Below, one piece after another: positions 2,665 through 19,503 of a DNA stretch of 24,000 nucleotides. The notes under the pieces are model-generated. The model searched no databases and was not told where the DNA came from. It saw only the letters and a program-made list of their open reading frames with translations. The position numbers were made by a program, and so were the translations under genes. This DNA comes from Agarilytica rhodophyticola (GTDB lineage Bacteria > Pseudomonadota > Gammaproteobacteria > Pseudomonadales > Cellvibrionaceae), in the NCBI RefSeq assembly GCF_002157225.2, contig NZ_CP020038.1, positions 6,010,991 to 6,034,990 of the forward strand, given 5' to 3'. Position 1 is the stretch's first letter. Each line of letters begins with the position of its first letter.

Positions 2665-2689
2665 ACTAACATAAAAAGCAACTTATAAT

Positions 2690-2724
2690 AGTGTAGAGAG
2701 CTAACAATAAATGCTCTCTACACT
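2690..2724. terminator. hairpin between convergent genes (likely bidirectional intrinsic terminator)
   Basis: Perfect 12-bp stem agtgtagagagc (2690-2701) / gctctctacact (2713-2724) with an 11-nt loop. It lies between the GH16 stop (2664) and the stop of the minus-strand gene (2734). A T-rich tract follows only in the minus direction. Confidence 0.6.
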
Positions 2725-2733
2725 CCCTAGCCT

Positions 2734-3372
2734 CTAACGCTTAAATGTAACAATCAACTCAGGAGGAAAGTCACTTTCCAAAGATGCAAAGGCAATTCCA
2801 TCTCCCCCCTCATCCATTTCCAGTAATAATGATATTTCACCGTTATCACTTAGCAACGATCCGATATCCAGAAGATAAGATTTTCCAGACTTCCACTTAC
2901 CATTCCTGCTACCAATTAGCCCTCCTTTAATTGGTGCGCTAGAGGCCGTCAAATCACCTTCACTCCAATTATTACCCACGCCCCGGTATGCTTTTATCAT
3001 ACCTTTACCGGCATTAGTAATATGTACTTTTAGTTTTACTCCCGAAACAACACCGTCAATATTTTTGACATCGAATTTCAAATAAGCAACATCCTGACCA
3101 TCTTTAACCTGTAAGTTATCTGTATTTCGCCCAAAATCACGCTCTAAATAAGCGTCCTCTGTAGGTTGAAAACGCAATACTTTTTCATTTCTTTCGACGC
3201 TGGGGTATGTTTTATCACGATAAGCTTTAGGTAAAATATTCGCAGCTAAAACTATGGAAGACTGATTAACGTTTCTCTCATTAATTCCGCCAAAAGATAT
3301 ATTGCTATATCCATATGTAACAATTACAAGAAGAGTATTAAATAAACGTTTATTAGAAATAAAACTTTTCAT
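2734..3372 (-). CDS. secreted DNRLRE / CBM96-like domain protein
   Basis: 212 aa with an N-terminal signal-like segment. The body matches the pattern I recall for DNRLRE-type domains: EDAYLERDFGRNTDNLQV....VAYLKFDV......V.GVKLKVH......G.IKAYRGVGNNWSEGDLT. This corresponds to the 'a.lkFDl ... W.E..lT' signature. Confidence 0.65.
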   Translation of the reverse strand: MKSFISNKRLFNTLLVIVTYGYSNISFGGINERNVNQSSIVLAANILPKAYRDKTYPSVERNEKVLRFQPTEDAYLERDFGRNTDNLQVKDGQDVAYLKFDVKNIDGVVSGVKLKVHITNAGKGMIKAYRGVGNNWSEGDLTASSAPIKGGLIGSRNGKWKSGKSYLLDIGSLLSDNGEISLLLEMDEGGDGIAFASLESDFPPELIVTFKR

Positions 3373-3602
3373 TTTCTTAGTTTTACCTTCACTTTTAAAC
3401 CAAACAATTGCCCTAAAAGCGACAAGGGGAAAACATCTAACTCATAAGATGATCCACAAAATCACTTTTATCCACCTAAACACTAAAGCAAAGGCCCCAG
3501 CTTAAAGTAGAACTTGATCACAATTTGGTTAAAGACTATAGAGCCATGAGGCTAGAAAGGTATTTTTTGGCGAGAGAAATGCTTTAAATATTGATAACAA
3601 AT

Positions 3603-4406
3603 TTAAACACCGCAACCAATACGCTTTGAATCGACAGCTATATTGTCCATCCATCCAGACATTCCTTCATTACTTTGATAAGTCTGTAAACCAAACTTAA
3701 TCCAAGTAAATATACTTGGAATAGAATTTTCTGAAGGAAATTTTACTTTATGAGATATTTGGTCAATACGAGAGCCATTTCTAAAAAACTCGTAACTTTG
3801 CGACTTGTGATCTATATACCATTCAACACAAACCCATTCATTAGAGAAATGCCAATTATAGTCAGAAGCTACACCACCTTCAGCGTCATTATCAATTTGA
3901 ACGTTGTAAAGATATTGATGCTGCTTTGATATATTATTTTGCACAGTATCCACTACTCGAACTTCATAGTTTGCGCCCCTAAGAGCAACTAGAGTCCCAT
4001 GCAATACTGTATGATTATCAGCTATCGGCGTAGGTGTTTCGATCTTATAAAAGATACGTCCCCAGTGGCTACCGGGTATATTCTCCTTAGTGATATAAGA
4101 CTGATGATACGCCTGGGTTCCCTTTGAAGAAAAATAAAGCGCCCCTTTACTCTGATAAGCTTCTTCATTTTTAACAATTTTTATATTTTTACCCACATCA
4201 AACTGATGAGAAAAATTTTCAGGTATACTCTCCTCAAAATCTAAGCATATATAGTAATCTTTATTCAAACATGTTTCAGCAGGCATACCGGAAGTATTAG
4301 AACCTATTAGTCGACGATTAAGCTTATCGACAGATAGGATGAAAATTAAAAGTAGTAAGAAACAAAAAATAATAATACTAGCTTTCTTGTTATAAAGAGC
4401 CTTCAT
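3603..4406 (-). CDS. hypothetical membrane-anchored or secreted protein, possibly a concanavalin/LamG-like beta-sandwich (function unknown)
   Basis: 267 aa. N-terminal hydrophobic anchor (IIIFCFLLLLIFILSV), beta-rich composition, and W/Y/H-rich segments (HWGRIFYKI, WVCVEWYIDH). It ends 6 nt upstream of the RNase Z stop-side neighbour, so it is probably co-transcribed. No family confidently recognised. Confidence 0.6.
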   Translation of the reverse strand: MKALYNKKASIIIFCFLLLLIFILSVDKLNRRLIGSNTSGMPAETCLNKDYYICLDFEESIPENFSHQFDVGKNIKIVKNEEAYQSKGALYFSSKGTQAYHQSYITKENIPGSHWGRIFYKIETPTPIADNHTVLHGTLVALRGANYEVRVVDTVQNNISKQHQYLYNVQIDNDAEGGVASDYNWHFSNEWVCVEWYIDHKSQSYEFFRNGSRIDQISHKVKFPSENSIPSIFTWIKFGLQTYQSNEGMSGWMDNIAVDSKRIGCGV

Positions 4407-8261: not shown

Positions 8262-10358
8262 AGGATTATTAATTGTTAAACCACTATCATGTAGCAGTCA
8301 CGAAAAGTTATAAATTTCAATGGTGTATAATACTTACCGCCACTGTCGGCCTCGACCGCAAATGTAAGGCATATATAACTTATGTGACACCTCCATCATT
8401 CCAAGACAGACAACTGATGTCCCTGCACCTACATTTTCTTCTAACAGCACGTTTAGGTGTTACAACACCCTTATAAATCACATTGTTATCCTGCATTTTT
8501 TACCAGGCTCACAACCGACTTACTTGTCTTTGTATTAGGCTGATATTAGAAGTCATCAGCCTAATTAAGGCTATCCGTACTGTTTAGCGCGTTACCGTAA
8601 CATTTCACACATGACTGGCGCCGATAATCAGTTCACGCTTATCATGCATTCCCTCTATTACCGGGGGTATGCTACACAGGCTAACAATGTGCCATTGTTG
8701 GCTTGTATAATACTTCGTAGAAATACAAAGAGCACATTTTCTTCTTAATATTTGCACATTTCAACGGCATTGTCGCTTTTTTCAACATCAATTTCGCACA
8801 ATTCTAAACGGATCTAGCGTTCAGTAGACCGCTTACAGATACACCACCTTCCCCTCACATTATTCAAACAACAAGGTAAAGATGATTAAAAAAACAAATA
8901 GATTGATTTTTAACCAGAAAATATAAGTGAATATCACGATAAAACTATCACTCAAAAAAATCGCGAAATATAGAGGCCATATTTATATTACTTAAATAAC
9001 GATATTTACCCTGTAAACTGTCTTCTAAACATACAAACGAAAATGTGCGCACCAATATTGCTCATATATTTTCCAATAAAACACCAAGTATCTCAAAGAC
9101 TGTGTGGGGACGAGTGTTTAAGAAATTTGTTTGTTTTTCAAACTAATGTTTGCATGCTAGATTGCGTTCTCTGTGACTCGTTATCCACTTTAATGTAAGT
9201 CATTAAGATTTGAGGACTGATTCAAGATCTCGTCCTGAGTCCATTCTTTTATAAAGCTATATCTAAGGGAAATAGTTTTTTGCAACGAAAAGCTAAGCAA
9301 CAAGTAGCTGAAGAGATACAGGGAGGTTGCTATTGAGAAAGCCAAGAAATTGCCAGTCTTCGCTCATCCACGAGTCAATTTTTGCTTTGGCGTTCTTCTA
9401 TAAGGACAAGTGCCCAAGCCAAGCATTATAGCTAGTCAAAAATCAACATAATATTAATAAACACGTTAATTATTTAACCCCTTTACTGATTAGTAATATG
9501 AGTTACTAACTCCTTTACATTACACTGTAGGTATTATGTAATGACTTGTAATTTAAGTTTTAATCAGGATCAGGTATTTTCATTGTGAAACTCAACAAGT
9601 GAATCTAAGCTGGCACAATTTGCTTCATCATTGAAGCAAAAAAGTACAAATGGCATAGAAATCACATAATTATTTATCACTTAAACTTAGATAGTTTTTA
9701 AGAAAATAAAAAAATACACATTGGAATTTTTATGTAAGTTTTTATTCAATATAGTTTTTTAAAAGCATGTAGAAAGCACCCACTGAGCACTGGAGCTATC
9801 TTAACATACAAATGTAGCACTACAATCGATTGCAGTAAGCTATTGATTGGCTAGGAAAAATAAATCTTATATTTTTATTTTTCATAAGGAAGTTAATTTA
9901 TAAATGGATTATTTAGGTTTTCTACAACTACAGAAATCGAGCCTCAACTCATCTCAAAAAAAAATTACGTCACTTCCATTTAAACGTGACCAACCTTTCC
10001 AGTTGAAAATTTAATTTGTAAAAAATTATTCAATAACATGCAAATTAAAATTTCACAATTATTGAACTTATCAAACTAGTTATATTTCCATTTCAATAAC
10101 TAAGCATATGTGATGACGCATAACTCTCTTTAATTTTGTAAGAACATAAAAAAAACCGTATAGGCAATGAATTAACCCTATAAAAAACTTTTCGTCCCGC
10201 CTAATTTAAACATTCAAAAACCACGTAGGCTAAGTGGGGCCAGTGGCGACTATACCTCTAACGCATCTTAAGAAAATAGGTGCCAAATAAATTAGAAAGC
10301 TCGCCAAAAATGAAATTAGCATCGCTTAGGTAAGCTATTATTTTTTAAGGAATCAGAA

Positions 10359-11831
10359 ATGAAAATTTTCTCAGATACTAATAACTACAAAGCTAATAAT
10401 ATCCAGAGTACCAAAAATCACTATCAGCTACAGTTTTGCCTCACCAAAATATTAGATAGAGCTAACCTCAAGAATGGCGCCATATACTTCTACAAAACAA
10501 ACCAAATTGATGCGCCAAAAAAACCACTAGAACTCTCATTTAACTTTGGAAAAGTTCCTGCTGAACAATGTACTAGCTATCCAATTCTTTACCAAAGAAA
10601 AAAGATTGGGGACTTACTTTTAGATAAAGATCAAGAATCTCAAGAGCAGATCTATAACTTGTCCGAGATAACAAAAAGCATGGCACTATTATTTAAACGT
10701 TTCAAAACTAATGAATGTGCTGACCAAGCAGGTAGTGAATATCCTGTTCTTGTTGGGTTTAGCGAACAATCATTGGCCTTGGAAAGTTTTATAGAAAAAT
10801 CATCCGATAGCATCTCCCCTGTCATTATCGAAGGTGACCACGGAAATGAAATGTCAGCAATTGCAAGAGCAATACACGATAATAGCCACCTGATTAAAAA
10901 GAAATATAGAGAGATAGATTGCTCAACCAGTAGCAATATAGACGAGAGAATAAAGCAAGCATGGAAAGAAAGTATAGGTGGTAGCCTTTATCTACACGAG
11001 ATCAATGAATTATCCCTAGAGTTACAATGTCATTTAATACAGCTATTACATGGCGACGTAAAAATTATAGCATCATCAACTCGACCACTAGAACAGTTGG
11101 TACACGAAGGGAAATTTTATCGTCAATTATATACCGCACTGAATTTTCTCAAAATACATATCCCTCCACTAAGAGAGCGAAAAGAAGACATCCCATATAT
11201 GCTGAATCAACTGATTCTAAAATATAGATGCTACGATAACCAAACATTAACTGAAGAAACAAAGCAAGCTTTGTATAATTTTGATTGGCCTGAAAATTAT
11301 ATGCAACTCGAACGAGTAATGGCTAAGCTGCTAGCCCTATCAAATAGTAATCCTATAGAACTTCACGAACTAAAACTGGTACTACCTACCATATGCTCAA
11401 ATATTAAAAACAACGAAAATCTATATCCTATACCAACAAAAATAGATTTACTAGGTTGCTTAATAAATAAAGATTATCGTGAACTATCAGGGTTACACAT
11501 TGCATTGAGAAGGTCTCTGCAATACCTAGCCGAAAATTACTCTGAAAGCATTACCCTAGAGAAGCTCTCCATGAAAGCGCATGTTAGTTCATCACACTTA
11601 TCCTTTCTATTTAAATATCACTTAAATAAGAGCTTCAAAAAAGTTCTTGCAGAACTTCGAATAGAACAAGCCAAAAGACTATTCGAAAACTACCCTTACA
11701 AACGGGTTACCGACATATGTCTTGAAGTGGGTTTCGGGGATCTCAGTCATTTCGAGAAAATATTCAAACGCTATACAAAAATGACACCAAGAAGCTATAA
11801 AGATAGTTTCCATAGAAAATGTTTCTATTGA
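10359..11831 (+). CDS. transcriptional regulator: GAF-like N-domain + degenerate sigma-54-activator-type AAA+ domain + AraC-type HTH
   Basis: Central region aligns to the bEBP core (LVGFSEQSLALESFIEKSSDSISPVIIEG..., GGSLYLHEINELSLELQCHLIQLL, EGKFYRQLYTALN...IHIPPLRERKEDIPYML, FDWPENYMQL). The C-terminus is a typical AraC/XylS double HTH (ITLEKLSMKAHVSSSHLSFLFKYHLNKSFKKVLAELRIEQAKRLF....VTDICLEVGFGDLSHFEKIFKRYTKMTPRSY). Confidence 0.85.
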   Translation: MKIFSDTNNYKANNIQSTKNHYQLQFCLTKILDRANLKNGAIYFYKTNQIDAPKKPLELSFNFGKVPAEQCTSYPILYQRKKIGDLLLDKDQESQEQIYNLSEITKSMALLFKRFKTNECADQAGSEYPVLVGFSEQSLALESFIEKSSDSISPVIIEGDHGNEMSAIARAIHDNSHLIKKKYREIDCSTSSNIDERIKQAWKESIGGSLYLHEINELSLELQCHLIQLLHGDVKIIASSTRPLEQLVHEGKFYRQLYTALNFLKIHIPPLRERKEDIPYMLNQLILKYRCYDNQTLTEETKQALYNFDWPENYMQLERVMAKLLALSNSNPIELHELKLVLPTICSNIKNNENLYPIPTKIDLLGCLINKDYRELSGLHIALRRSLQYLAENYSESITLEKLSMKAHVSSSHLSFLFKYHLNKSFKKVLAELRIEQAKRLFENYPYKRVTDICLEVGFGDLSHFEKIFKRYTKMTPRSYKDSFHRKCFY

Positions 11832-11929: not shown

Positions 11930-12148
11930 ATGAGTAACTCAACACCACAAGAGATATGTAATACTTTAATTAAGGAATATGATCCAAAAATTTCAAGTTT
12001 AATGTTAGTTCAAGTGGTAGCTCAGTCACTGGGAAATGCAGCACAAAATGCTACTTTTTCGCAACAGCAGCAAAACATAATAATAAATACGAATACAGCT
12101 ATAAGTGCAAGCCTTCTCCACTCTATAGGTTCTGCATATTCACAATAG
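11930..12148 (+). CDS. Reb-like small protein, short subfamily (B1)
   Basis: 72 aa with AGGA RBS at a 6-nt spacer. Carries the core VAQSLGNAAQNATFSQQQQN shared with the RebB-like paralogs downstream, but lacks their N-terminal VNEQxTDSVTQ motif. Confidence 0.65.
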   Translation: MSNSTPQEICNTLIKEYDPKISSLMLVQVVAQSLGNAAQNATFSQQQQNIIINTNTAISASLLHSIGSAYSQ

Positions 12149-12231
12149 TGATTTCGTTCTTCGCCAAATTTAAAAGGGACACGTAAAACGAAGTCAAATA
12201 GATTTCATTAATATATAACAGAGGTAATAGT

Positions 12232-12492
12232 ATGCCAGTAAATGAACAAGTTACAGATTCAGTCACACAAGTAAACTCAAAAGTTGTTGGCGAAACGCCG
12301 GCTATGACAATGGGCAATATAATTTTATCATCAGGGCAAGCACTAAGCACGTCAGCTTTAAATGTTGCCAGTGGGCTAAACCATGGAAGCATTACAATGC
12401 AAGCCGCAACTATACAAGGTATTAACTCTCTAGTAGCGACTGGCACATCAGTGCTAGGTCGTGTGTCTGAGGAAGTTGTTGAAAAAGGTTAA
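12232..12492 (+). CDS. RebB / 'killing trait' family R-body subunit paralog (A1, divergent centre)
   Basis: 86 aa with GAGG RBS at a 7-nt spacer. N-terminus is MPVNEQVTDSVTQVNSKVVGETPAMTMG, C-terminus ITMQAATIQGINSL...GRVSEEVVEKG. It is paralogous to 12671 and 14311. The antisense ORF 12123..12446 is a shadow. Confidence 0.88.
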   Translation: MPVNEQVTDSVTQVNSKVVGETPAMTMGNIILSSGQALSTSALNVASGLNHGSITMQAATIQGINSLVATGTSVLGRVSEEVVEKG

Positions 12493-12670
12493 TTTTATAA
12501 TGAGAGGAATTAGCTCTACAAAATTACTTTATTTCGGTAGTCTTTTAGAGCATTGATTCGCTTATACTTATTAGTTTGTTAACTAATAATATGATCGAAA
12601 GGGCTAGTACAGCCAATTAAAACGATGTTTTATTACATCATGTTAAACTATTTAAATTAGGATTTTAATT

Positions 12671-12934
12671 ATGCCAGTAAATGAACAAGTTACAGATTCG
12701 GTTACACAAGTAAATACTAAAGTTGTCGGTGAAACACCAGCGATGGCAATGGGTAATTTACTTATGTCAACAAGCCAAGCTTTAGGTAACGCTGCACATA
12801 ACGCTACTGCAGCACAACAACAAGCACAAATAACAATGCAGGCTGCCACAGTACAAGGTGTTAATTCACTAATGTCTATTGGTAGCTCCGTTATCGGGCG
12901 TAGTGCAGAAGGAATTATTGAGAAAGACGGTTAG
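12671..12934 (+). CDS. RebB / 'killing trait' family R-body subunit paralog (A2)
   Basis: 87 aa: MPVNEQVTDSVTQVNTKVVGETPAMAMGNLLMSTSQALGNAAHNATAAQQQAQITMQAATVQGVNSL. This matches my recollection of the PF11747 RebB signature (INSQITDSVTQ...LG..PA.AMG.LYQ...hs.GLAMQNAV..QQ). A strong terminator follows. Confidence 0.9.
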   Translation: MPVNEQVTDSVTQVNTKVVGETPAMAMGNLLMSTSQALGNAAHNATAAQQQAQITMQAATVQGVNSLMSIGSSVIGRSAEGIIEKDG

Positions 12935-12952
12935 TAAGTTGCATTAGATTTT

Positions 12953-12990
12953 AACCTTCATTACGTGAGAAAACGTAATGAAGGTTTTAA
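12953..12990 (+). terminator. rho-independent terminator after reb paralog A2
   Basis: Perfect 13-bp stem aaccttcattacg (12953-12965) / cgtaatgaaggtt (12974-12986), with 8-nt loop tgagaaaa, followed by tt. It lies 19 nt after the stop. Confidence 0.75.
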
Positions 12991-13046
12991 TAGTTCCCTC
13001 CTACTATTAGACTGTTCACTCTTTTATAACTAACGGCAGAAAAGCA

Positions 13047-13358
13047 ATGTCAAATATCAATCAACCCCCAGAGCCAAGCTATACAGCAGTTGCAAATGCG
13101 CAACAATCAATCGCACAATCTACAGCCTTAGCGTTAGCAGATGCTACAGATAATTTAAGAAACCTTAATACATTAAGCACCACAGCCATAGGCGTAGCAT
13201 TATCACAATATATAGAAACAGGTGACGAAAAATTTAGCTCAATTATTGAAGAGGCACAGCAAGTCGTAACTAGAGGCACAGAAAACTTTAGCGCTGTAGG
13301 CGAGAAAATTGCTGTTGTATTACATGAAAAAAATGACTCAGAAAAAACTGAAAAATAA
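13047..13358 (+). CDS. Reb-associated small protein, subfamily C (C1)
   Basis: 103 aa. Clear paralog of 14948..15214 (compare AQQSIAQSTALALADATDNLRNLNTLSTTAIGVALSQYIETGDEKF with AQQAVAQTTAIAVQDAADNLRNISTVTSTAIGVALAQLLATGDEKY). Ala/Thr/Gln-rich helical, with a distant resemblance to the Reb core. The antisense ORF 13079..13375 is a shadow. Confidence 0.75.
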   Translation: MSNINQPPEPSYTAVANAQQSIAQSTALALADATDNLRNLNTLSTTAIGVALSQYIETGDEKFSSIIEEAQQVVTRGTENFSAVGEKIAVVLHEKNDSEKTEK

Positions 13359-13573
13359 AAATTTACCAATTTCATTTACTTTTAAACATTAAAATGATCT
13401 TTCTATGCTCTATAGCATATTGGTATTAAAACAAGCATATAACGTAAACAGAGATAAACTTATCATCATTTTACCCGATTATTTACTATATTCATCGAAT
13501 ATTCTTTGCTTTATAAATAGTACCTTTTAGTTTTTGTTAAGAATAACCCAAAACAAACATGATAGGAAACAAC

Positions 13574-14023
13574 ATGAATGAAACTGAAAGTAAAGGCACA
13601 GAATCCGAGAGCACACCTGAAGAAATAAATCCTTTTTCAAGTCAAGCTACAGGTTTGGTGGAGACAACTTTCGCCGAAACTCTAGGCCTGGCTATGCACA
13701 ACGCAGTGACAAATCAACAAAACTCTCAAATGACAGCTTCGGCTTCTATAACAAATGCTTGTGCTCGTTTATTGCAATCGCCTACTCCTAAAAAACCAAA
13801 GCCAAAATCAAAGGCGCTTAATGATAATGAATCAAGTAAGGAAATTGATTCGGAAGATGGAAAGGATGATAAGAATGCATTATCGAAGAAACCGAAGTCT
13901 TGGTTAAACGTTAAAAATTTTATGAAGCGAAAACCAAAAGATGAAACTCCAGCACCGGATGAATCGGATGATGATCATCTAGAAAGTAAACAACAGTCCA
14001 CGGCACCAAAGAATGAAGAATAA
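13574..14023 (+). CDS. Reb-like short-subfamily core (B2) fused to a long charged low-complexity tail
   Basis: I prefer the ATG at 13574 (AGGA with 7-nt spacer) over 13559. Core is AETLGLAMHNAVTNQQNSQMTASASITNACARLL, followed by about 85 aa rich in K/P/D/E/S (PTPKKPKPKSK...DDKNALSKKPKSW...KRKPKDETPAPDESDDD). Confidence 0.75.
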   Translation: MNETESKGTESESTPEEINPFSSQATGLVETTFAETLGLAMHNAVTNQQNSQMTASASITNACARLLQSPTPKKPKPKSKALNDNESSKEIDSEDGKDDKNALSKKPKSWLNVKNFMKRKPKDETPAPDESDDDHLESKQQSTAPKNEE

Positions 14024-14277
14024 TGACAGACCTACAAAAGATAATGAATGATATAGATGATCATATCAAGTCTATTTCTGATTTGAATAAAAACCAAATG
14101 AATTTAGTTGATGAATTGGTAAGTAAGAATGAAAAGGATATCGAAGCCTATCAAGCTTTTAATGACGCAGATGAGATCAATGAAAAAGTGGCAAGTATGA
14201 TACAAAAAGTCACAGATGAACTTGATTCGGCAGTAAAAGATATTAAGGATAGAATAAAGGTAGGCGACATGAAATAG
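14023..14277 (+). CDS. small acidic coiled-coil protein (hypothetical, reb-cluster associated)
   Basis: 84 aa. Its start overlaps the previous stop (TAATG at 14021-14025), suggesting translational coupling. Heptad-like, D/E/K-rich sequence with no Reb motif. Confidence 0.6.
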   Translation: MTDLQKIMNDIDDHIKSISDLNKNQMNLVDELVSKNEKDIEAYQAFNDADEINEKVASMIQKVTDELDSAVKDIKDRIKVGDMK

Positions 14278-14310
14278 CAAAGAAAGAAAAATAAATTATG
14301 AGGAAAAATA

Positions 14311-14574
14311 ATGGCAACAGTTAATGAGCAGATTACAGATTCAGTTACTCAAGTGAATACAAAAACACTAGGTGATGCACCCGCGATGGCGATGGGCAGC
14401 CTATTTACCGCCACGAGCCAAGCATTATCAAATGCTGGGTTAAACTCCACCACGTCTCAGCAACATGCGGGAATTACCATGCAGGCAGCTACTGTTCAAG
14501 GAGTCAATTCTTTAGGCGCTATAGGAAGTGCTGTATTAGGAAGGGCAGCGGAAGCTGTTGTTGAAAAAGGATAG
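14311..14574 (+). CDS. RebB / 'killing trait' family R-body subunit paralog (A3)
   Basis: 87 aa with GAGGA RBS at a 6-nt spacer. Sequence MATVNEQITDSVTQVNTKTLGDAPAMAMGSLFTATSQALSNAGLNSTTSQQHAGITMQAATVQGVNSL. This is the closest of the three to the canonical RebB N-terminal motif as I remember it. Confidence 0.9.
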   Translation: MATVNEQITDSVTQVNTKTLGDAPAMAMGSLFTATSQALSNAGLNSTTSQQHAGITMQAATVQGVNSLGAIGSAVLGRAAEAVVEKG

Positions 14575-14585
14575 AACTTAGTTCT

Positions 14586-14611
14586 AGGCCTACTTATAGG
14601 TAGGCCTTTTA
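14586..14611 (+). terminator. rho-independent terminator after reb paralog A3
   Basis: Stem aggcctac (14586-14593) / gtaggcct (14600-14607), 6-nt loop, followed by tttt. It lies 12 nt after the stop. Confidence 0.7.
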
Positions 14612-14724
14612 TGAAGCACTAGAATCGTGAAGCTAAAATATTAAATAATTTAGTAATAGTCTTTTAAAACCTCAAATATAGAATATTCTTCATCCCTTCC
14701 TATCGTCAAATATTCGGGTGTATC

Positions 14725-14907
14725 ATGGCACAAGAAGAGACAGAAAAAATAAGTAATATAATAAACGAATTAAGCGAGGCTACTTTAGCCGATACTATCG
14801 GGTTAATGATGGAAAATGCTGTAACCATACAACAAGGGATGCAAACAGTAACTAATGCTTCAATATCTTCATCTTGTGCTTTAATACTGGCGCAAGGTGG
14901 TGGCTAA
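14725..14907 (+). CDS. Reb-like small protein, short subfamily (B3)
   Basis: 60 aa. Core LADTIGLMMENAVTIQQGMQTVTNASISSSCALILAQG is collinear with B2 (FAETLGLAMHNAVTNQQNSQMTASASITNACARLLQS). The RBS is weak. Confidence 0.65.
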   Translation: MAQEETEKISNIINELSEATLADTIGLMMENAVTIQQGMQTVTNASISSSCALILAQGGG

Positions 14908-14947
14908 TATGTATCTCATAACAATCATAGTTTTTCCTAAATAAACC

Positions 14948-15214
14948 ATGTCAGATAACTCAGCAAAACTCAAAGCTCAACAAGCAGTTGCACAAACAAC
15001 GGCAATCGCTGTGCAAGATGCGGCTGATAATTTACGAAATATTAGCACAGTTACCAGTACAGCAATTGGTGTCGCTTTAGCTCAACTACTCGCTACAGGA
15101 GATGAAAAATACATTAAAGTGATAGATGAGGCAGAAAAAGCTTTGGCGAGTGCTGTTGAAAATTTTGCCACCGTAGGTGAAAAGGCGGCAAAAATATTAG
15201 AAGGATTTTCTTAA
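14948..15214 (+). CDS. Reb-associated small protein, subfamily C (C2)
   Basis: 88 aa. Paralog of 13047..13358 along its whole length (also ENFATVGEKAAKIL versus ENFSAVGEKIAVVL). No obvious SD, but the paralogy supports it as a real gene. Confidence 0.75.
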   Translation: MSDNSAKLKAQQAVAQTTAIAVQDAADNLRNISTVTSTAIGVALAQLLATGDEKYIKVIDEAEKALASAVENFATVGEKAAKILEGFS

Positions 15215-15242: not shown

Positions 15243-15869
15243 TTACACATCATATGCAACCACACATAAACGCTCTCCCCCATTTCTCTTGATTTGACTT
15301 AGACGTGCGATACTGGTGCTGCCATTCAAACTTGTGTCAAGAACATACGAGCACCTCTTATTATTATCTAGAGGTTTCAGTAGATTAATATCTTTGTTTT
15401 CAAAATTTCCATTAAATACAAATATAGTATTAATAGACAAAGATGGATTTTCTTTCTTTAGATGTTCAACTCTTATCATATCATTTTCAAATATTGCAAG
15501 CTGTCTATTACTCTTTAATGAAATTGAGTCACTACATCTAACCTCAAAATGTTGAGTCTTTCCATCACACTCAAAACTGAAGTCACTTCTAGACGCACGC
15601 CTTTTTTCCATTACTTTAGTTACACCAGTTTTAGCATGGTAGTGCAAAAAACGGGCACTGCTATTTTCATCATTATCAACTCCAGATGCACAATAATAGT
15701 CTTCGACACTAATTTTATCACTTAATTTTTCACAAGAAAAAAGTAGCGCCATTTCAGTTGTAAACCATTGTTTCCAGGACTTACTAAGATAATCATTTTT
15801 AAAAACATCATAAGCTTTAGAGAAGTTATAGTTCTTTTGAATTATTGAAAGTAATAATTGTGAGTTCAT
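15243..15869 (-). CDS. hypothetical protein (no confident family; weak PD-(D/E)xK-like strand pattern)
   Basis: 208-aa ORF with ATG start, convergent with the reb cluster. It is the last of three co-oriented genes with short gaps. The SDFSFECDGKTQHFEVRC segment is only loosely nuclease-like. ORF 15316..15555(+) is a shadow. Confidence 0.65.
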   Translation of the reverse strand: MNSQLLLSIIQKNYNFSKAYDVFKNDYLSKSWKQWFTTEMALLFSCEKLSDKISVEDYYCASGVDNDENSSARFLHYHAKTGVTKVMEKRRASRSDFSFECDGKTQHFEVRCSDSISLKSNRQLAIFENDMIRVEHLKKENPSLSINTIFVFNGNFENKDINLLKPLDNNKRCSYVLDTSLNGSTSIARLSQIKRNGGERLCVVAYDV

Positions 15870-15921
15870 AGTTATTTTTCATCTTGTTTTTAATAGTAAT
15901 TTATTTATTAATAATATTTAT

Positions 15922-16230
15922 TTAGATTATTTTAAGTGCGGTATCCGTTAAGCGAGACATCGCTGAATTTACCGCCTTTTGTACAGTAGATCGACCTATA
16001 ATTTCCAATGTTATAATTTCGGCCTCGATAATATCCCTCTCCCTTTCCAATTCGAATGCAACATCATCTTTACTTATATCGCCATTTTTATATGCTACAA
16101 TCAAATCACCAAATAGTTGATTGCGACTAATCAAAGCAGTGGAAAACTCATTTTTTATGGCGTCCTCATAAGAACTCAAAGAATCCAAAGCATCATCTGA
16201 CATTTTCTTTATAATATCTGAAACATTCAT
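15922..16230 (-). CDS. hypothetical small helical acidic protein
   Basis: 102 aa with ATG start and AAGG upstream. It lies 28 nt downstream of the previous minus-strand gene and 52 nt upstream of the next. No family recognised. Confidence 0.6.
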   Translation of the reverse strand: MNVSDIIKKMSDDALDSLSSYEDAIKNEFSTALISRNQLFGDLIVAYKNGDISKDDVAFELERERDIIEAEIITLEIIGRSTVQKAVNSAMSRLTDTALKII

Positions 16231-16258
16231 ATTTATAACCTTACTGTTAATTTCTAAC

Positions 16259-16699
16259 TTAATTTTTTGAGGGTTTAGATGATTCTCCGCGAATCATTGC
16301 TCTAAATAGCCTTTTATAATTGTCACGGCCACGCTTTATAAAAAAATCACCTAATTCAACTTTATTTTTATGTCTTTCTATATCTGAATTCCAGGAGTTA
16401 ATTACTATATCTACTTGTTTTAATGTTAATTCATTAAACGGTCTACTTTCCTGCCTAGACTTCAGCCTATTTAAGCCTGCAGCCACATTAATGTAGTAGT
16501 CTTTAAAATTTATAAATGTTCGTTCACTTCTATCGACGTGACTCATATGGATGTACATACGATCAATATTTTCTGCTATTTGCTCCATTTGAAAAAGTGA
16601 CTCTTCATCATAGTCTGAAATAACATTCAACAAACAACCATATTGGAGAGCTAAAGCTAAATACACACTACACTTGAAGTACTTATAAAATAAAAACAT
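16259..16699 (-). CDS. hypothetical protein with hydrophobic N-terminus
   Basis: The track gives a TTG start at 16714. I prefer the ATG at 16699, preceded by GAGGGA (the spacer from GAGG is 5 nt). N-terminus MFLFYKYFKCSVYLALALQYGC could be a signal or anchor, although the lipobox is non-canonical. The rest is a charged helical region. Confidence 0.6.
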   Translation of the reverse strand: MFLFYKYFKCSVYLALALQYGCLLNVISDYDEESLFQMEQIAENIDRMYIHMSHVDRSERTFINFKDYYINVAAGLNRLKSRQESRPFNELTLKQVDIVINSWNSDIERHKNKVELGDFFIKRGRDNYKRLFRAMIRGESSKPSKN

Positions 16700-16902
16700 A
16701 GATCCCTCATTCAAGATTTTACGATTTTGACATTATGGTTTTATATTCAATAAAAACTACGCACAATCCACTAAAAATTGAACAAATTATTTATAAAAAA
16801 TAATTAATAGTAAATTTAAACGAATTTACGGTTGTTTATTTTTAGTTTTGGAACTGTCAAATTGACATTATTCGATAACATACTGTGACGGGGATAGAAT
16901 AA

Positions 16903-17535
16903 ATGAGCATTAAACTAACGAATGATGATTTGAAAAATATAATGCCAAAATCTTCATTAGATAATATCGAGTTTTACCTACCATCTCTAAATAGGAAAAC
17001 ATCAGAATTTGGCATATTAAGCCCACTTCAATTAGCACATTTTATCGCTCAAATAGCGCATGAAAGCGGTAGTTTTAATTATAAAGTTGAAAACTTGAAT
17101 TATAGCACCGGAGCTCTAAGAGCTGTTTTTGGAAAATACTTCGAAGATGAATCTACCGCAGAAGAATATGCGCGCAAACCGGAGAAGATCGCCAACGTAG
17201 TATACGCAAATCGTATGGGCAATGGTGATACAGCGTCTGGAGACGGATGGCGTTATCGAGGGCGGGGTTTAATTCAGTTAACAGGGCGAGATAACTATGC
17301 TTCTTGCAGTAAAGCAATAGGTGTTGACGTAGAAAAAAACCCAGATTTATTAGCTGGCGATGCAGACGTAATTGTAGCTGCAGCTTGCTGGTTTTGGCAA
17401 TCGAGAGGGCTCAACCAACTAGCGGAGCAAGATGATATTAAGCAGATAACTAAGAAAATAAATGGTGGTTATAATGGTTTAGATGATCGCAAAGAATATT
17501 TGGTAAGAGCAAAGAAAACTTTTCATATAAAATAG
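16903..17535 (+). CDS. glycoside hydrolase family 19 protein (phage/pyocin-type endolysin-like muramidase, 'putative chitinase')
   Basis: 210 aa, no signal peptide. Motifs LAHFIAQIAHESGSFNYKVENLNYS (catalytic Glu pair) and YRGRGLIQLTGRDNY, plus INGGYNGLDDR, are typical of small GH19 lytic enzymes such as the P. aeruginosa pyocin lysis enzyme family. Confidence 0.88.
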   Translation: MSIKLTNDDLKNIMPKSSLDNIEFYLPSLNRKTSEFGILSPLQLAHFIAQIAHESGSFNYKVENLNYSTGALRAVFGKYFEDESTAEEYARKPEKIANVVYANRMGNGDTASGDGWRYRGRGLIQLTGRDNYASCSKAIGVDVEKNPDLLAGDADVIVAAACWFWQSRGLNQLAEQDDIKQITKKINGGYNGLDDRKEYLVRAKKTFHIK

Positions 17536-17550
17536 AAAGAGGATAAAATC

Positions 17551-18390
17551 TTGAAAAACAAAAAAGAGTTCTATGATTTACTGGAATCATTCAATAGCTC
17601 GGATGACATTTTTAAAATATTTCAGAGTATAGAAAACAATATCAATCACTACGCAAAGAAAATATATTCAGATAGAATAAAATCTAAAAAAACTGGTGTT
17701 CCTTTATTAGATTGGTGGATTGCATGTAGCACTCTACTTATTAATAAACAGTTAATCATAAGTGATGTTAACTTTGATGATAAATCTGATAAAGGTAAAG
17801 AATTTATAGAGATATATAACCGTGGCCCCCTCATTGTCGATATCTCTCAATTCTCTATTAATGCTGGCGACCAGGGACAGGATTTTACATTCCCCGACCA
17901 CCTCATTATGTATCCGGGACAAAGGATTAAGGTTCACACATATGTCGGCGAGGGTTTCAATTTCAACAGCAAGCGGCCTATATGGAATAATAAAGGAGAC
18001 GTAGCTTTCCTTTATGATAATCAAGGTGATCTTATTTCATCCTGGGCATATGGTATGGCAGCACAAAATCATATCAAAATTAAATATATAAATTATGACG
18101 GCGAAGAGAAATATACAGAAGGTGATGAGTATGTCGAGATAGAAAATAACAGTACTCATCAAATAGATATATCGGGATGGCAATTGCAGTCAAATAAAAA
18201 TCAAGTTTTCACTTTTCCTAATAACACAAGTATTTCACCATCTGCTGTTATACGTATTTATACGAATTTTGTGGATACCATCACTGGTGGTTTTTCTTTT
18301 AATAGTGCAACCGCCATATGGAATAACAAGGGTGACAAAGGGACACTTATAGATGCTCAAGGCAAAACCGTAGACGAATACTTATATTAG
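17551..18390 (+). CDS. protein with two lamin-tail (LTD) domains and a helical N-terminal region
   Basis: 279 aa, TTG start with AGAGGA at a 7-nt spacer, 15 nt after the GH19 stop. Two repeats carry the LTD signature: GKEFIEIYNRGPLIVDISQFSI....DFTFP....PGQRIKVHT....FNFNSKRPIWNNKGDVAFLYDNQGDLIS, and GDEYVEIENNSTHQIDISGWQLQ....VFTFP....PSAVIRIYT....FSFNSATAIWNNKGDKGTLIDAQGKTVD. Confidence 0.82.
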   Translation: MKNKKEFYDLLESFNSSDDIFKIFQSIENNINHYAKKIYSDRIKSKKTGVPLLDWWIACSTLLINKQLIISDVNFDDKSDKGKEFIEIYNRGPLIVDISQFSINAGDQGQDFTFPDHLIMYPGQRIKVHTYVGEGFNFNSKRPIWNNKGDVAFLYDNQGDLISSWAYGMAAQNHIKIKYINYDGEEKYTEGDEYVEIENNSTHQIDISGWQLQSNKNQVFTFPNNTSISPSAVIRIYTNFVDTITGGFSFNSATAIWNNKGDKGTLIDAQGKTVDEYLY

Positions 18391-18405
18391 AGGCTATTCA
18401 GGCTT

Positions 18406-19503
18406 ATGTTGAAAGATAAAGATGCGGAAAATGGCAATATATCCTTAGATATTATAAAAATTGTTGATGATAGCCAACGATTGATTTCATACATAGCCAA
18501 AAATGGTGATATTGAGCTTGATCCTGATGTCACAAATATTATTGTACAAGCCAAATACAAAATATCAGAAAACCAATGGGGCTCCGAAGATGAAGTAATT
18601 TTTTTATCTAACTATGACAAACTTGCAAAGATAATATACCCGGTTACAGTCGAAAGCTTAAATGCAATCATTCCTACTTATGAAGGAAAAAGAAGGAAAA
18701 AAACTAATGCTGAAAAGGCTGTATCCTGGTATAGGAGAAATACAATATTCGCTTTAATATTTCTTTTGACTATACAAGCATACTGGCTTTTCGGTCACCA
18801 GATAAGAGCAAATTTAATAGAAAATATATCTGAGAGGAAAATTATAAGTGAAGAAATAGAAGATTTATCTCCAGGTGACAAAAAACTAAAAAGACTAAAA
18901 AGTGATCTCAACTTACAAAACCAAGAGTTTGATGCTAATAATAGTTTACTGAATAGGTGGAATAAAGTGTGGTCGTTCGGTGCTGAATTCAAAGGTACGA
19001 TGCCAAAATATTTTCAAACAGTCTATGAAGGTAAGAAATCTGAGATAGAAAGCTATGCAGATGCTAATAACCAAGCATTAGTTGAATTAGAACAGTCTCA
19101 TATTTTACATACAGAAAGGATTAAGTTATTTGAAAACATTCTCTCATCAGGTTTTGTTTTAGATACATTTCAAGGATATTTTTTACCACTACTTTATGGT
19201 TTACTAGGAGCATTTATTTTTATTTTGCGAACACTCATGATGGAAATAAAATCTATGACATACACAATGAATTCAGAAATAAAATTTCGCCTTCGTTTAA
19301 CACTGGGAGCTCTGGGTGGAATGATTATAGGATGGTTTCTAAAGCCCGATAACACAGATGCTCTTGCATCTTTGTCTCCTATGGCTCTTGCCTTCTTAAT
19401 GGGCTATAACGTAGATGTATTATTTTCAATAATGGATCGAATTGTTGATAACATAAGTCAGAGTATTAACAAAAATGAAAGTAATCTACATCAAAGCAAG
19501 TAA
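18406..19503 (+). CDS. membrane protein: soluble N-domain, TM1, long coiled-coil, three C-terminal TM helices (hypothetical)
   Basis: 365 aa, 15 nt after the LTD gene stop. Hydrophobic helices lie at about residues 113-130 (IFALIFLLTIQAYWLFG), 256-276 (FLPLLYGLLGAFIFILRTL), 297-312 (LTLGALGGMIIGWFL) and 322-342 (LSPMALAFLMGYNVDVLFSIM). ORF 18795..18992(-) is a shadow. Confidence 0.8.
   Translation: MLKDKDAENGNISLDIIKIVDDSQRLISYIAKNGDIELDPDVTNIIVQAKYKISENQWGSEDEVIFLSNYDKLAKIIYPVTVESLNAIIPTYEGKRRKKTNAEKAVSWYRRNTIFALIFLLTIQAYWLFGHQIRANLIENISERKIISEEIEDLSPGDKKLKRLKSDLNLQNQEFDANNSLLNRWNKVWSFGAEFKGTMPKYFQTVYEGKKSEIESYADANNQALVELEQSHILHTERIKLFENILSSGFVLDTFQGYFLPLLYGLLGAFIFILRTLMMEIKSMTYTMNSEIKFRLRLTLGALGGMIIGWFLKPDNTDALASLSPMALAFLMGYNVDVLFSIMDRIVDNISQSINKNESNLHQSK

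What the first reader, a model, noticed from the sequence alone, without database searches (positions are those of the whole stretch)
11930..15214. Expanded R-body (reb / 'killing trait') locus: nine co-oriented small genes, eight Reb-like
Seen in sequence:
- Three ~86-aa ORFs (12232, 12671, 14311) start M(P/AT)VNEQ(V/I)TDSVTQVN(S/T)K..G(E/D)(T/A)PAM(A/T)MG and end ITMQAAT(V/I)QG(V/I)NSL...G..(V/I)(L/I)GR..E..(V/I)EK.
- Five more small ORFs on the same strand share the central A-x-(S/T)-(L/I)-G-x-x-x-x-N-A-(V/T)-x-x-Q-Q-like core or a derivative of it.

From memory, the N-terminal motif is the hallmark of RebB-family proteins (Pfam PF11747). These polymerise into R-bodies, coiled protein ribbons that extend at low pH and rupture membranes. 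They are known from Caedibacter endosymbionts of Paramecium, with functional homologues reported in Azorhizobium and Pseudomonas aeruginosa.

The reference operon has four genes (rebABCD). Here 3.3 kb carries eight Reb-like genes plus one coiled-coil gene, in what looks like a free-living marine gammaproteobacterial chromosome. The number and diversity of paralogs suggest a more elaborate or heteropolymeric ribbon than the characterised systems.
Basis: partly seen in the sequence, partly recalled or inferred. Interest (0 to 1): 0.85.

Follow-up and report, generated by a model that had tools for sequence, protein, structure and literature searches.

The report
Standard marine R-body (reb) gene cluster
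This is a real R-body (coiled protein ribbon) gene cluster in the marine bacterium Agarilytica rhodophyticola, but it is the standard layout already catalogued in many marine bacteria, and it has the fewest genes of the about 30 such clusters compared here.

Summary
Nine co-oriented small ORFs lie exactly at 11930-15214. Six pass Pfam's RebB/PF11747 threshold (33-105 bits; cut-off 24). Two (13047, 14948) are 54%-identical paralogs of a separate Reb-associated family with only marginal Reb similarity. One (14023) is an unrelated coiled-coil protein.

The "expanded" reading does not hold. The order regulator–short Reb–core Reb copies–C–long-tailed Reb–coiled coil–core Reb–short Reb–C recurs gene for gene in about 30 loci. 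These include Marinomonas mediterranea, a documented R-body producer, and Vibrio coralliilyticus, where the same gene list is published. Those loci carry 3-6 core copies before the first C gene; this window carries 2. The cluster is bigger than Caedibacter rebABCD but the smallest of its own class. It corresponds to Raymann's "Group 1" synteny and Dorr's groups 1+S1/S2/S3.

The source is Agarilytica rhodophyticola (Cellvibrionaceae), for which I found no R-body report.

Additional points:
- The conserved upstream regulator is an enhancer-binding-protein core that has lost the GAFTGA loop and carries an AraC DNA-binding domain.
- A strong hairpin follows the core-Reb block.
- An endolysin-like GH19/LTD/membrane-protein island often, but not always, accompanies these clusters.

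Verdict: new member of a known kind; modest interest.

The parts
10359..11831 (+). Reb-linked transcriptional regulator (490 aa): unknown N-terminal domain, degenerate enhancer-binding-protein AAA+ core, AraC-type HTH
   Evidence: Pfam Sigma54_activ_2, AAA_lid_14, HTH_18/HTH_AraC. An ortholog sits next to the reb genes in 32 loci. The GAFTGA loop is deleted in all reb-linked orthologs; here Walker A reads GDHGNEMS and Walker B DE is HE.
11930..12148 (+). O1, short Reb-like protein (72 aa; has the NA-x-x-QQQQ core, lacks the QVTD N-terminus)
   Evidence: PF11747 39.9 bits. Positional orthologs of 66-83 aa come first in most loci. The short-Reb profile matches the core-Reb profile at 96%, E 3e-9.
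12232..12492 (+). O2, core Reb, divergent first copy (86 aa; QVTD N-terminus, lacks the NA..QQQ motif)
   Evidence: PF11747 66.5 bits. In other loci the first core copy is likewise the divergent one, 62-80% identical to O3 versus 88-99% for later copies.
12671..12934 (+). O3, canonical core Reb (87 aa), presumed major ribbon subunit; this is the gene amplified to 2-5 copies in related loci
   Evidence: PF11747 104.8 bits. 47% identical to Caedibacter RebB, 43% to RebA, 38% to RebD.
12948..12991 (+). Strong stem-loop just after the core-Reb block (terminator, attenuator or mRNA stabiliser)
   Evidence: 19-nt arms; MFE -21.6 kcal/mol, z -6.9. A comparable hairpin follows the last core gene before O4 in 86% of the locus records scored (near-identical Pseudoalteromonas and Marinomonas records not collapsed); median -22.8 versus -6.5 to -13.5 kcal/mol after the other genes.
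13047..13358 (+). O4, C-type Reb-associated protein (103 aa); probably Dorr group S3 / Raymann HP1.2
   Evidence: PF11747 16.2 bits, below cut-off. 54% identical to O9. The family has 264 near relatives and 360 50%-identity clusters. 23 of 36 members give weak RebB hits, best E 6e-4.
13559..14023 (+). O5, Reb domain plus a long charged Pro/Lys/Asp/Glu-rich tail (154 aa; possibly starts at the second ATG, 13574); probably group S2 / HP1.3
   Evidence: PF11747 48.2 bits at residues 28-76. Family present in 36 loci. Its profile matches the short-Reb profile at 97.5%, E 5e-12.
14023..14277 (+). O6, conserved non-Reb coiled-coil protein (84 aa); its start overlaps the O5 stop (TAATG)
   Evidence: No family hit above threshold. 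A positional ortholog of about 81-116 aa (mostly ~85-91) lies between O5 and O7 in every two-module locus that retains the O5 gene. Unrelated to all Reb profiles and to Caedibacter RebC.
14311..14574 (+). O7, core Reb, third subclass (87 aa)
   Evidence: PF11747 89.1 bits. Positional orthologs in most two-module loci.
14587..14606 (+). GC-rich stem-loop followed by UUUUAU after O7 (terminator-like)
   Evidence: MFE -17.1 kcal/mol, z -3.4.
14725..14907 (+). O8, short Reb-like protein (60 aa); probably group S1 / HP1.4
   Evidence: PF11747 32.8 bits. Positional orthologs in all loci.
14948..15214 (+). O9, second C-type protein (88 aa); the terminal gene, as in all related loci
   Evidence: No RebB hit. 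54% identical to O4. Identical to an Agarilytica rhodophyticola protein, P0013.
15243..15869 (-). D208, conserved neighbour of unknown function (208 aa; invariant E39, D96, E109-V-R111)
   Evidence: Family present in 13 reb loci. AF2 pLDDT 75; no significant PDB fold match, only a weak nuclease-flavoured list.
15922..16714 (-). D102 (15922-16230) and D151 (16259-16714), a conserved gene pair of unknown function
   Evidence: The pair is found in 7 reb loci, and in L046, L047, L049 and L053. No Pfam, PADLOC or PHROG hits.
16903..19503 (+). Triad: GH19 endolysin-like hydrolase (16903-17535), double lamin-tail-domain protein (17551-18390), 365-aa helical membrane protein (18406-19503); a frequent but optional companion of the cluster
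   Evidence: Glyco_hydro_19 and LTD by Pfam; phrog_181 endolysin E 2e-84. The triad lies beside reb clusters in other genera. It also occurs without reb. The membrane protein has no fold match.

Best explanation
The region is the chromosomal R-body (reb) locus of Agarilytica rhodophyticola, of the two-module 'Group 1' type common in marine Gammaproteobacteria.

Shown:
- Six genes encode RebB-domain proteins in four conserved positional classes: short (O1, O8), core (O2, O3, O7) and long-tailed (O5).
- Two genes encode a Reb-associated C-type family (O4, O9), and one encodes a conserved coiled-coil protein (O6).
- Each class keeps its position across genera, and only the O3 class varies in copy number.

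Inferred mechanism:
- The upstream regulator derives from an enhancer-binding protein but lacks the sigma-54 contact loop and has an AraC HTH. It therefore probably acts at sigma-70 promoters and switches the cluster on in a subpopulation.
- The core Reb proteins, with O3 as the major one, polymerise in the cytoplasm into a coiled ribbon. The hairpin after the core block keeps them in excess over downstream products.
- The short, long-tailed and C-type proteins are probably minor components or nucleation, edge or termination factors.
- O6 is probably a non-incorporated assembly factor, analogous to but not homologous with Caedibacter RebC.
- After ingestion by a grazer or host cell, the ribbon extends and ruptures membranes. 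The trigger is low pH in type 51 R-bodies and is unknown for this class.
For: - RebB HMM hits above threshold for six ORFs.
- O3 is 47%, 43% and 38% identical to Caedibacter RebB, RebA and RebD.
- The gene order is conserved in about 30 loci. One is M. mediterranea, whose R-bodies are linked to its Reb homologs in PMC3583457.
- The same gene list is published for V. coralliilyticus RE22.
- The orthologous genes are transcribed and induced on chitin in V. coralliilyticus S2052.
- PMC7457808 cites EM of recombinant V. nigripulchritudo Reb proteins.
- Profile comparisons link core, short and long-tailed classes.
- The regulator is adjacent in 32 loci and always lacks GAFTGA. No -24/-12 promoter lies in the reb region.
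- A hairpin follows the core block in 86% of the locus records scored, duplicates not collapsed.
- In type 51 R-bodies, RebC is not incorporated and RebC/RebD steer assembly (bioRxiv 10.64898/2026.05.21.725848).
- The ORFs are intact and 98-100% identical in an independent Tara Oceans scaffold.
Against: - No R-body has been reported in Agarilytica in the literature I could search.
- Nothing here shows expression or assembly in this organism.
- The roles assigned to the six non-core classes are guesses from position and conservation.
- The C-type proteins fail the RebB threshold and have no profile match to core Reb.
- O6 has no detectable similarity to RebC, so the analogy rests only on size, position and non-homology.
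- The window has only two core copies before O4, against 3-6 elsewhere, so dosage could be limiting.
- No Reb structure is solved.
- pH triggering is documented for type 51 and is only assumed here.
Confidence: 0.82

Rival explanations
1. The reb cluster is only one module of a larger 'R-body plus release/toxin' island. The neighbouring GH19 endolysin-like enzyme, LTD protein and 365-aa membrane protein would lyse the producer or deliver damage. D208 (possibly nuclease-like) and the D102/D151 pair would be cargo, toxin or immunity functions that work together with the ribbon.
For: - All six accessory families lie within 4.3 kb of the cluster here.
- They flank reb clusters in other genera in different arrangements.
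- The peptidoglycan hydrolase of the triad is swapped for an unrelated muramidase (PF11860) in Vibrio. This suggests the hydrolase activity itself is selected.
- GH19 matches phage endolysin phrog_181 at E 2e-84.
- A muramidase also lies in the V. coralliilyticus reb island.
Against: - Of eight membrane-protein homologs sampled without regard to reb, only three have reb genes within 10 kb.
- One locus (L053) has all six accessory families but no regulator or reb genes. Three loci have the membrane protein alone.
- The V. coralliilyticus, V. nigripulchritudo and V. mexicanus loci lack these genes within 10 kb.
- Neither D208 nor the membrane protein has a significant fold match.
- There are no PADLOC or PHROG assignments beyond GH19 and LTD.
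Confidence: 0.2
2. The cluster makes a cytoplasmic polymer or inclusion other than a classical R-body. Examples would be a phasin-like coat or a different filament. In that case the Reb domains are a structural scaffold reused for another purpose.
For: - One C-type relative is labelled 'Phasin domain-containing' by a source database.
- Three of the nine genes are not RebB-domain proteins.
- No structure or assembly data exist for this class.
Against: - M. mediterranea carries the same locus, and PMC3583457 links its observed R-bodies to its Reb homologs.
- Core Reb proteins are 38-47% identical to the Caedibacter R-body proteins, with the full QVTD and QQQ signatures.
- No phasin Pfam hit was found for any ORF.
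Confidence: 0.06
3. The locus is a decaying or silent remnant. It has fewer core copies than relatives and a regulator with a dead ATPase site.
For: - There are only two core copies before O4, against 3-6 elsewhere.
- The regulator's Walker A lysine is lost and Walker B is altered.
- A 2.1-kb ORF-free stretch lies upstream of the regulator.
Against: - All nine ORFs and the regulator are intact.
- An independent Tara Oceans scaffold is 99.55% identical over 10.9 kb, with the same ORFs.
- The degenerate Walker A is shared by the whole two-module clade, including M. mediterranea-type loci. It is therefore an old, tolerated state and not recent decay.
Confidence: 0.07

Closest known systems
Marinomonas mediterranea reb locus (L055; Raymann et al. 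2013 'Group 1' synteny; documented R-body producer)
   Same: The order is the same: AraC-type/AAA+ regulator, short Reb, core Reb copies, C-type, long-tailed Reb, coiled coil, core Reb, short Reb, C-type. The C-type proteins are about 65% identical.
   Different: M. mediterranea has four core copies before the first C gene; this window has two. The regulators are 397 aa and 490 aa. The flanking genes differ. The hosts belong to different orders.
Vibrio coralliilyticus RE22 reb region (AXN33740-AXN33750; PMC7457808 Table 2) and V. nigripulchritudo
   Same: The eleven-gene list is identical in kind and order, including the 87-aa coiled-coil 'hypothetical' and the 403-aa AraC/AtoC-like regulator. 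The V. coralliilyticus genes are expressed on chitin.
   Different: The Vibrio loci have three core copies. No GH19-LTD-membrane triad lies within 10 kb; a PF11860 muramidase lies elsewhere in the ~30-kb island.
Compact Group 1 clusters (Shewanella, second V. ostreicida locus, Polyangia, Acidobacteria, Bacteroidota). These probably match the Hydrogenophaga taeniospiralis seeds of Dorr et al. 2026: group 1, S1 (65 aa), S2 (184 aa), S3 (113 aa).
   Same: The protein classes are the same: core Reb, short Reb, long-tailed Reb and a terminal C-type protein. The GAFTGA-less regulator family is also the same.
   Different: The compact loci have one of each accessory class, ordered short, long-tailed, C. 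Their C protein is 110-138 aa, and they have no coiled-coil gene. A ~355-aa gene follows (probably Raymann's HP1.1); it is absent from this window and unrelated to the 365-aa membrane protein here. The regulator's Walker A is intact there.
Caedibacter taeniospiralis rebABCD (type 51 R-body, plasmid pKAP298)
   Same: RebA, RebB and RebD are homologous to O2, O3 and O7 (38-47% identity). Both have small clustered genes and one non-Reb small protein in the cluster.
   Different: Caedibacter has four genes against nine here, and its genes are plasmid-borne against chromosomal here. RebC has no detectable similarity to any protein here. Caedibacter has no short, long-tailed or C-type classes and no linked AAA+/AraC regulator.
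Pseudomonas aeruginosa PA14 and Azorhizobium caulinodans reb clusters (Raymann 'Group 2')
   Same: All have RebB-domain structural genes, accessory non-Reb genes and a dedicated linked regulator. R-bodies are experimentally shown in these two (PMC8322103, PMC5527310).
   Different: The accessory proteins differ (HP2.1/2.2, S4). The regulators differ: a sigma factor plus a Crp/Fnr-type RebR, with PraR repression. There are no S1/S2/S3 classes.

Membership tests
RebB / 'killing trait' family (Pfam PF11747) | Score at or above Pfam's gathering cut-off (24 bits) | tested here: met
   Met by six ORFs: 11930 (39.9), 12232 (66.5), 12671 (104.8), 13559 (48.2), 14311 (89.1), 14725 (32.8). Not met by 13047 (16.2), 14948 (no hit) or 14023 (no hit).
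RebB / 'killing trait' family (Pfam PF11747) | N-terminal Q(I/V)TD signature flanked by prolines, with K-x3-D/E (domain 1 of Dorr et al. 2026) | tested here: met
   Read directly in O2, O3 and O7 (P-VNEQVTDSVTQVNTKVVGE-TP). Absent from O1, O5, O8, O4 and O9, as the paper describes for its 'secondary' groups.
RebB / 'killing trait' family (Pfam PF11747) | NA(V/T)..QQ(Q) motif (domain 3) | tested here: met
   Present in O1, O3, O5 and O8. Weakened in O7 (NSTTSQQH). Absent in O2, O4 and O9.
RebB / 'killing trait' family (Pfam PF11747) | Direct similarity to experimentally defined R-body proteins (Caedibacter RebA/B/D) | tested here: met
   O3 versus RebB: 47% over 68 aa, E 3e-19. Versus RebA: 43%, E 1e-17. 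Versus RebD: 38%, E 9e-9.
RebB / 'killing trait' family (Pfam PF11747) | Products assemble into a refractile coiled ribbon that extends on a trigger | not testable with these tools
   Needs expression and microscopy. The only indirect support is the orthologous locus in the R-body producer M. mediterranea.
C-type proteins (O4, O9) as members of the Reb family | Significant sequence or profile similarity to Reb proteins | tested here: inconclusive
   Sub-threshold Pfam hits in 23 of 36 family members, best E 6e-4. hhalign to the short-Reb profile gives 72%, E 3.5e-5, but nothing to the core profile. Seven of ten wider relatives had no RebB hit. In the other three the RebB hit lies in a separate region from the C-type domain, and only one of them reaches the 24-bit cut-off.
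Group 1 reb synteny (Raymann et al. 2013) | Distant Reb homologs HP1.4 (60-80 aa) and HP1.3 (~170 aa) next to core reb genes | tested here: met
   O1 and O8 (72 and 60 aa) and O5 (154 aa) fit by size, RebB hits and profile links.
Group 1 reb synteny (Raymann et al. 2013) | HP1.2 (~110-120 aa, no known domain) in the locus | tested here: met
   O4 and O9 (103 and 88 aa) are 44-59% identical to the 110-138-aa proteins at the terminal position of compact loci. The equivalence to HP1.2/S3 is inferred from size, position and description.
Group 1 reb synteny (Raymann et al. 2013) | HP1.1 (~360 aa) adjacent to the cluster | tested here: not met
   The ~355-aa family that follows the C gene in 14 compact loci is absent from the window and from all two-module loci. 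The 365-aa membrane protein at 18406 is unrelated to it (hhalign probability 0.1%). That this 355-aa family is HP1.1 is my inference.
Caedibacter type 51 rebABCD operon | RebC homolog present | tested here: not met
   RebC (114 aa, reconstructed across the origin of pKAP298) has no significant match to any window protein or family profile. The best is the C-type profile at E 0.079.
Sigma-54-dependent enhancer-binding proteins (for the regulator at 10359-11831) | GAFTGA loop, intact Walker A/B, and a -24/-12 promoter at the target | tested here: not met
   The loop region carries a 15-residue deletion in all reb-linked orthologs. Walker A reads GDHGNEMS and Walker B reads HE. No TGGCAC-N5-TTGCW site lies upstream of any reb gene; 13 window-wide hits with up to 2 mismatches compare with 10.9 expected. 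It is an EBP-derived regulator, not a working sigma-54 activator.

The most novel reading that the evidence does not exclude
The six conserved neighbours are the 208-aa possibly nuclease-like protein, the 102/151-aa pair, and the endolysin-like hydrolase/LTD/membrane-protein triad. They may be the functional partners of Group 1 R-bodies: a programmed-lysis and toxin module that turns the ribbon into a killing device. That would give candidates for the still unidentified 'killer' factor that reb genes alone do not supply.
Probability: 0.15. Interest if true: 0.6.

Novelty: new member of a known kind. Interest (0 to 1): 0.27.

Why it matters
It adds Agarilytica rhodophyticola (Cellvibrionaceae), an agar-degrading bacterium from red algae, to the list of likely R-body producers. 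It also provides the most compact natural example found here of the marine two-module reb cluster: nine genes, one per conserved class plus a single extra core copy. That makes it a convenient minimal construct for asking which of the eight conserved protein classes are built into the ribbon and which only guide assembly.

The comparative work also yields leads that apply to the whole class:
- a conserved coiled-coil gene that the surveys read here do not single out;
- a regulator family derived from sigma-54 activators that can no longer contact sigma-54;
- a conserved hairpin that probably sets subunit ratios;
- a recurrent but optional lysis-like gene island.

None of this changes what R-bodies are understood to be.

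Tried and rejected
- **Sigma-54 control.** The regulator's Pfam hits suggested it, but the GAFTGA loop is deleted and no -24/-12 site lies in the reb region.
- **365-aa membrane protein as Raymann's HP1.1.** The ~355-aa family of compact loci is unrelated to it.
- **O6 or the C-type proteins as RebC homologs.** RebC was reconstructed from pKAP298. It shows no significant similarity to either.
- **Shared operator upstream of O1.** The top 7-mers across 21 loci do not exceed shuffled controls.
- **Phage origin.** No tblastn hit for O3 in 50,697 phage records.
- **Solved structures.** None exist for O3 relatives.
- **RNA families.** No Rfam family anywhere in the window.
- **Promoter and terminator scans.** They gave no more sites than shuffles. 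The two hairpins were found by repeat search and folding instead.
- **Antisense ORFs.** Those overlapping the reb genes (12123-12446, 12652-12849, 13079-13375) look 'conserved' across loci only because they shadow conserved genes.
- **Goudenège et al. 2013 (V. nigripulchritudo recombinant Reb EM).** The paper could not be read. It is cited only through PMC7457808.

Full report
**Observation.** I call them O1 to O9:

| Name | Coordinates | Length |
|---|---|---|
| O1 | 11930-12148 | 72 aa |
| O2 | 12232-12492 | 86 aa |
| O3 | 12671-12934 | 87 aa |
| O4 | 13047-13358 | 103 aa |
| O5 | 13559-14023 | 154 aa |
| O6 | 14023-14277 | 84 aa |
| O7 | 14311-14574 | 87 aa |
| O8 | 14725-14907 | 60 aa |
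| O9 | 14948-15214 | 88 aa |

The quoted sequence strings are correct. Pfam's RebB model (PF11747, cut-off 24 bits) is passed by six ORFs: O3 (104.8 bits), O7 (89.1), O2 (66.5), O5 (48.2), O1 (39.9) and O8 (32.8). O4 reaches only 16.2 bits, O9 has no hit, and O6 gives only scattered sub-threshold coiled-coil matches. O3 is 47% identical to Caedibacter RebB over 68 residues, 43% to RebA and 38% to RebD.

**How many genes are "Reb-like".** Profile-profile comparison used alignments built from about 30 related loci. Three classes are linked:
- core class (O2, O3, O7) to the short class (O1, O8): 96%, E 3e-9;
- short class to the long-tailed class (O5): 97.5%, E 5e-12.

O4 and O9 are 54% identical to each other and form a separate family. 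It links only weakly to the short class (72%, E 3.5e-5) and not at all to the core class. Of 36 family members, 23 give weak RebB hits, none convincing (best E 6e-4).

A profile of this family finds 360 clusters at 50% identity. I scanned ten of these wider relatives against Pfam. Seven had no RebB hit. In the other three, the RebB hit lies in a different part of the protein from the C-type domain. Only P0351 clearly passes (RebB at residues 47-102, 49 bits; C-type domain at 174-256); P0378 scores 23.7 bits and P0270 18.8 bits, both below the 24-bit cut-off. These look like natural fusions. They argue for a functional link between the two domains and for the C-type domain being its own unit.

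The count is therefore six RebB-domain proteins, two Reb-associated C-type proteins of marginal homology, and one unrelated coiled-coil protein.

**Source.** The 208-aa and 365-aa proteins downstream are 100% identical to Agarilytica rhodophyticola proteins on a 6,878,829-bp contig. O9 is identical to a protein of the same species. A. rhodophyticola belongs to Cellvibrionaceae, Gammaproteobacteria. A Tara Oceans scaffold is 99.55% identical over 10.9 kb with the same ORFs. The window also carries GH16/ricin-lectin and CBM96 proteins, which fits an agar degrader. The papers I could search mention no R-bodies in this genus.

**Is the cluster expanded?** No. A scan of one genome per species with the C-type family returned 43 loci. 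I assigned their ORFs by BLASTP to the window's proteins. About 27 loci share the window's order. Two more were reached by other routes (L046; L055). The order is:

regulator – short Reb – core Reb copies – C-type – long-tailed Reb – coiled coil – core Reb – short Reb – C-type.

The genera are Pseudoalteromonas, Thalassomonas, Algicola, Marinomonas, Vibrio (coralliilyticus, nigripulchritudo, ostreicida, mexicanus), Photobacterium, Grimontia, Celerinatantimonas, Oceanospirillum and Paraneptunicella.

- The coiled-coil gene was missed by BLASTP in most loci. It is nevertheless present as an ORF of about 81-116 aa (mostly ~85-91) that abuts or overlaps the stop of the long-tailed gene in every two-module locus that retains that gene.
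- Marinomonas mediterranea has this order with four core copies before the first C gene. Raymann et al. link its observed R-bodies to its nine Reb homologs (PMC3583457).
- Table 2 of PMC7457808 prints the same eleven-gene list for V. coralliilyticus RE22, including the AraC/AtoC-type regulator.
- The other loci have 3-6 core copies before the first C gene; the window has 2.

The cluster is thus larger than Caedibacter's rebABCD but the smallest of its own class.

The published surveys already cover this ground:
- They report 1-9 Reb homologs per genome and a "Group 1" synteny with distant Reb homologs of 60-80 aa and ~170 aa plus a 110-120-aa protein.
- They find 471 taxa with at least three clustered reb genes.
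- They state that groups 1 and S3 are typical of Vibrionales and Alteromonadales.

I infer the mapping O1/O8 ≈ S1/HP1.4, O5 ≈ S2/HP1.3 and O4/O9 ≈ S3/HP1.2.

**A second, compact layout.** Shewanella, a second V. ostreicida locus, Polyangia, Acidobacteria, Bacteroidota and a cyanobacterium show a different order. It runs core copies, short, long-tailed, a longer C-type (110-138 aa), then a ~355-aa gene. That 355-aa family is probably Raymann's HP1.1. It is absent from the window and unrelated to the window's 365-aa membrane protein.

**Regulation.** The 490-aa protein at 10359-11831 combines a sigma-54-activator-type AAA+ core with an AraC HTH. An ortholog lies next to the reb genes in 32 loci.
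- Aligned to E. coli NtrC, every reb-linked ortholog lacks the 15 residues that contain GAFTGA, the loop that contacts sigma-54.
- In the two-module clade Walker A is degenerate (here GDHGNEMS, lysine lost) and Walker B is altered (here HE). In compact loci Walker A is intact.
- No -24/-12 promoter lies in the reb region.

It is therefore an enhancer-binding-protein derivative that most likely activates sigma-70 promoters. What it senses is unknown. I found no shared operator word upstream of the first gene.

**Hairpins.** Two strong stem-loops follow core genes. One lies after O3 (12948-12991; -21.6 kcal/mol, z -6.9). The other lies after O7 (14587-14606; -17.1 kcal/mol, followed by UUUUAU). 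Across the locus records scored (near-identical records were not collapsed), the last core gene before the first C gene is followed by a hairpin of -12 kcal/mol or stronger in 86% of cases. The median is -22.8 kcal/mol, against -6.5 to -13.5 after the other genes. I read this as a conserved terminator, attenuator or stabiliser that keeps the core subunits in excess. That reading is inference.

**Mechanism.**
- *Shown:* homology to R-body structural proteins; conservation of eight positional classes across genera; copy-number variation confined to the O3 class; translational overlap of O5 and O6 (TAATG).
- *Taken from other systems:* RebA and RebB are the major type 51 components. RebD is a minor component. 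RebC is not incorporated, but RebC and RebD keep assembly on pathway. R-bodies of P. aeruginosa and A. caulinodans need accessory non-Reb genes and dedicated regulators.
- *Inferred here:* O3, with O2 and O7, builds the ribbon. The short, long-tailed and C-type proteins are minor or nucleating, edge or terminating components. O6 is an assembly factor analogous to RebC, although RebC shows no similarity to it or to anything else here. The extension trigger is unknown for this class.

**Neighbours.** Six genes follow the cluster:
- three on the minus strand: 208, 102 and 151 aa;
- a plus-strand triad: a GH19 hydrolase (phage endolysin phrog_181, E 2e-84), a double lamin-tail-domain protein, and a 365-aa helical membrane protein.

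All six families recur near two-module reb clusters in other genera, in other arrangements. In Paraneptunicella they lie on the other side of the cluster. In a Vibrio the GH19 is replaced by an unrelated muramidase within the same triad.

The link is not obligatory. I sampled eight membrane-protein homologs without regard to reb:
- three have reb genes within 10 kb;
- two have the accessory genes without reb, and one of these (L053) has all six families;
- three have the membrane protein alone.

Structure models of the 208-aa protein and the membrane protein were of fair confidence (pLDDT 75 and 74) but matched no solved fold significantly. A lysis or toxin role for this island is an attractive but weakly supported idea.

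**Verdict.** The finding is real and correctly named, but it is an ordinary, already-surveyed type of reb locus in a host not previously noted for it. It is a new member of a known kind.

Noticed in passing
window 8262-10358: A 2.1-kb stretch between the FKBP isomerase gene and the reb regulator has no ORF of 70 aa or more on either strand. It has no Rfam match and no nucleotide or translated similarity to the other reb loci. The same gap exists in the Tara Oceans scaffold (L001 2901-4999).
   Followed up: partly
window 15243-19503; L046 8387-12651; L049 8236-12054; L053 8475-18839: Six conserved families recur around reb clusters in varying arrangements: 208 aa; the 102/151-aa pair; GH19 endolysin-like; double LTD; a 365-aa membrane protein. 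In Vibrio L049 the GH19 is replaced by a PF11860 muramidase in the same triad. L053 carries all six families but has no regulator or reb genes.
   Followed up: partly
window 10359-11831 and orthologs in L002-L041: The reb-linked regulator family is a sigma-54-activator AAA+ core with the GAFTGA loop deleted, fused to an AraC HTH. Walker A is intact in compact loci and degenerate in two-module loci. I found no description of this family's properties in the papers read.
   Followed up: yes
proteins P0351, P0378, P0270: These look like natural fusions: a RebB-like region (significant only in P0351; 23.7 and 18.8 bits in the other two), a long linker and a C-terminal C-type (O4/O9-like) domain. 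They tie the long-tailed Reb class to the C-type family.
   Followed up: partly
window 12671-12934: O3 matches PHROG family phrog_32040 (unknown function) at E 1.3e-17. A tblastn search of 50,697 deposited phage genomes found nothing. The origin of that phage family's members was not traced.
   Followed up: partly
L022 and L030 (Vibrio ostreicida PP-203): One genome carries both locus types on different contigs: the two-module and the compact reb locus. This agrees with the published remark that marine gammaproteobacteria often have two different Group 1 clusters.
   Followed up: no
L045 1-70 with L054 2313-2613 (pKAP298, across the record origin): The Caedibacter RebC gene (114 aa) spans the start of the circular plasmid record, so it is missing from the PLSDB gene table. 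It had to be reconstructed by joining the record ends.
   Followed up: yes
window 1417-4406: A GH16 hydrolase with three ricin-type lectin repeats, a CBM96 protein, and a 267-aa protein with no family hit. This is polysaccharide-degradation gear consistent with an agar-degrading host, and it is unrelated to the reb locus.
   Followed up: no
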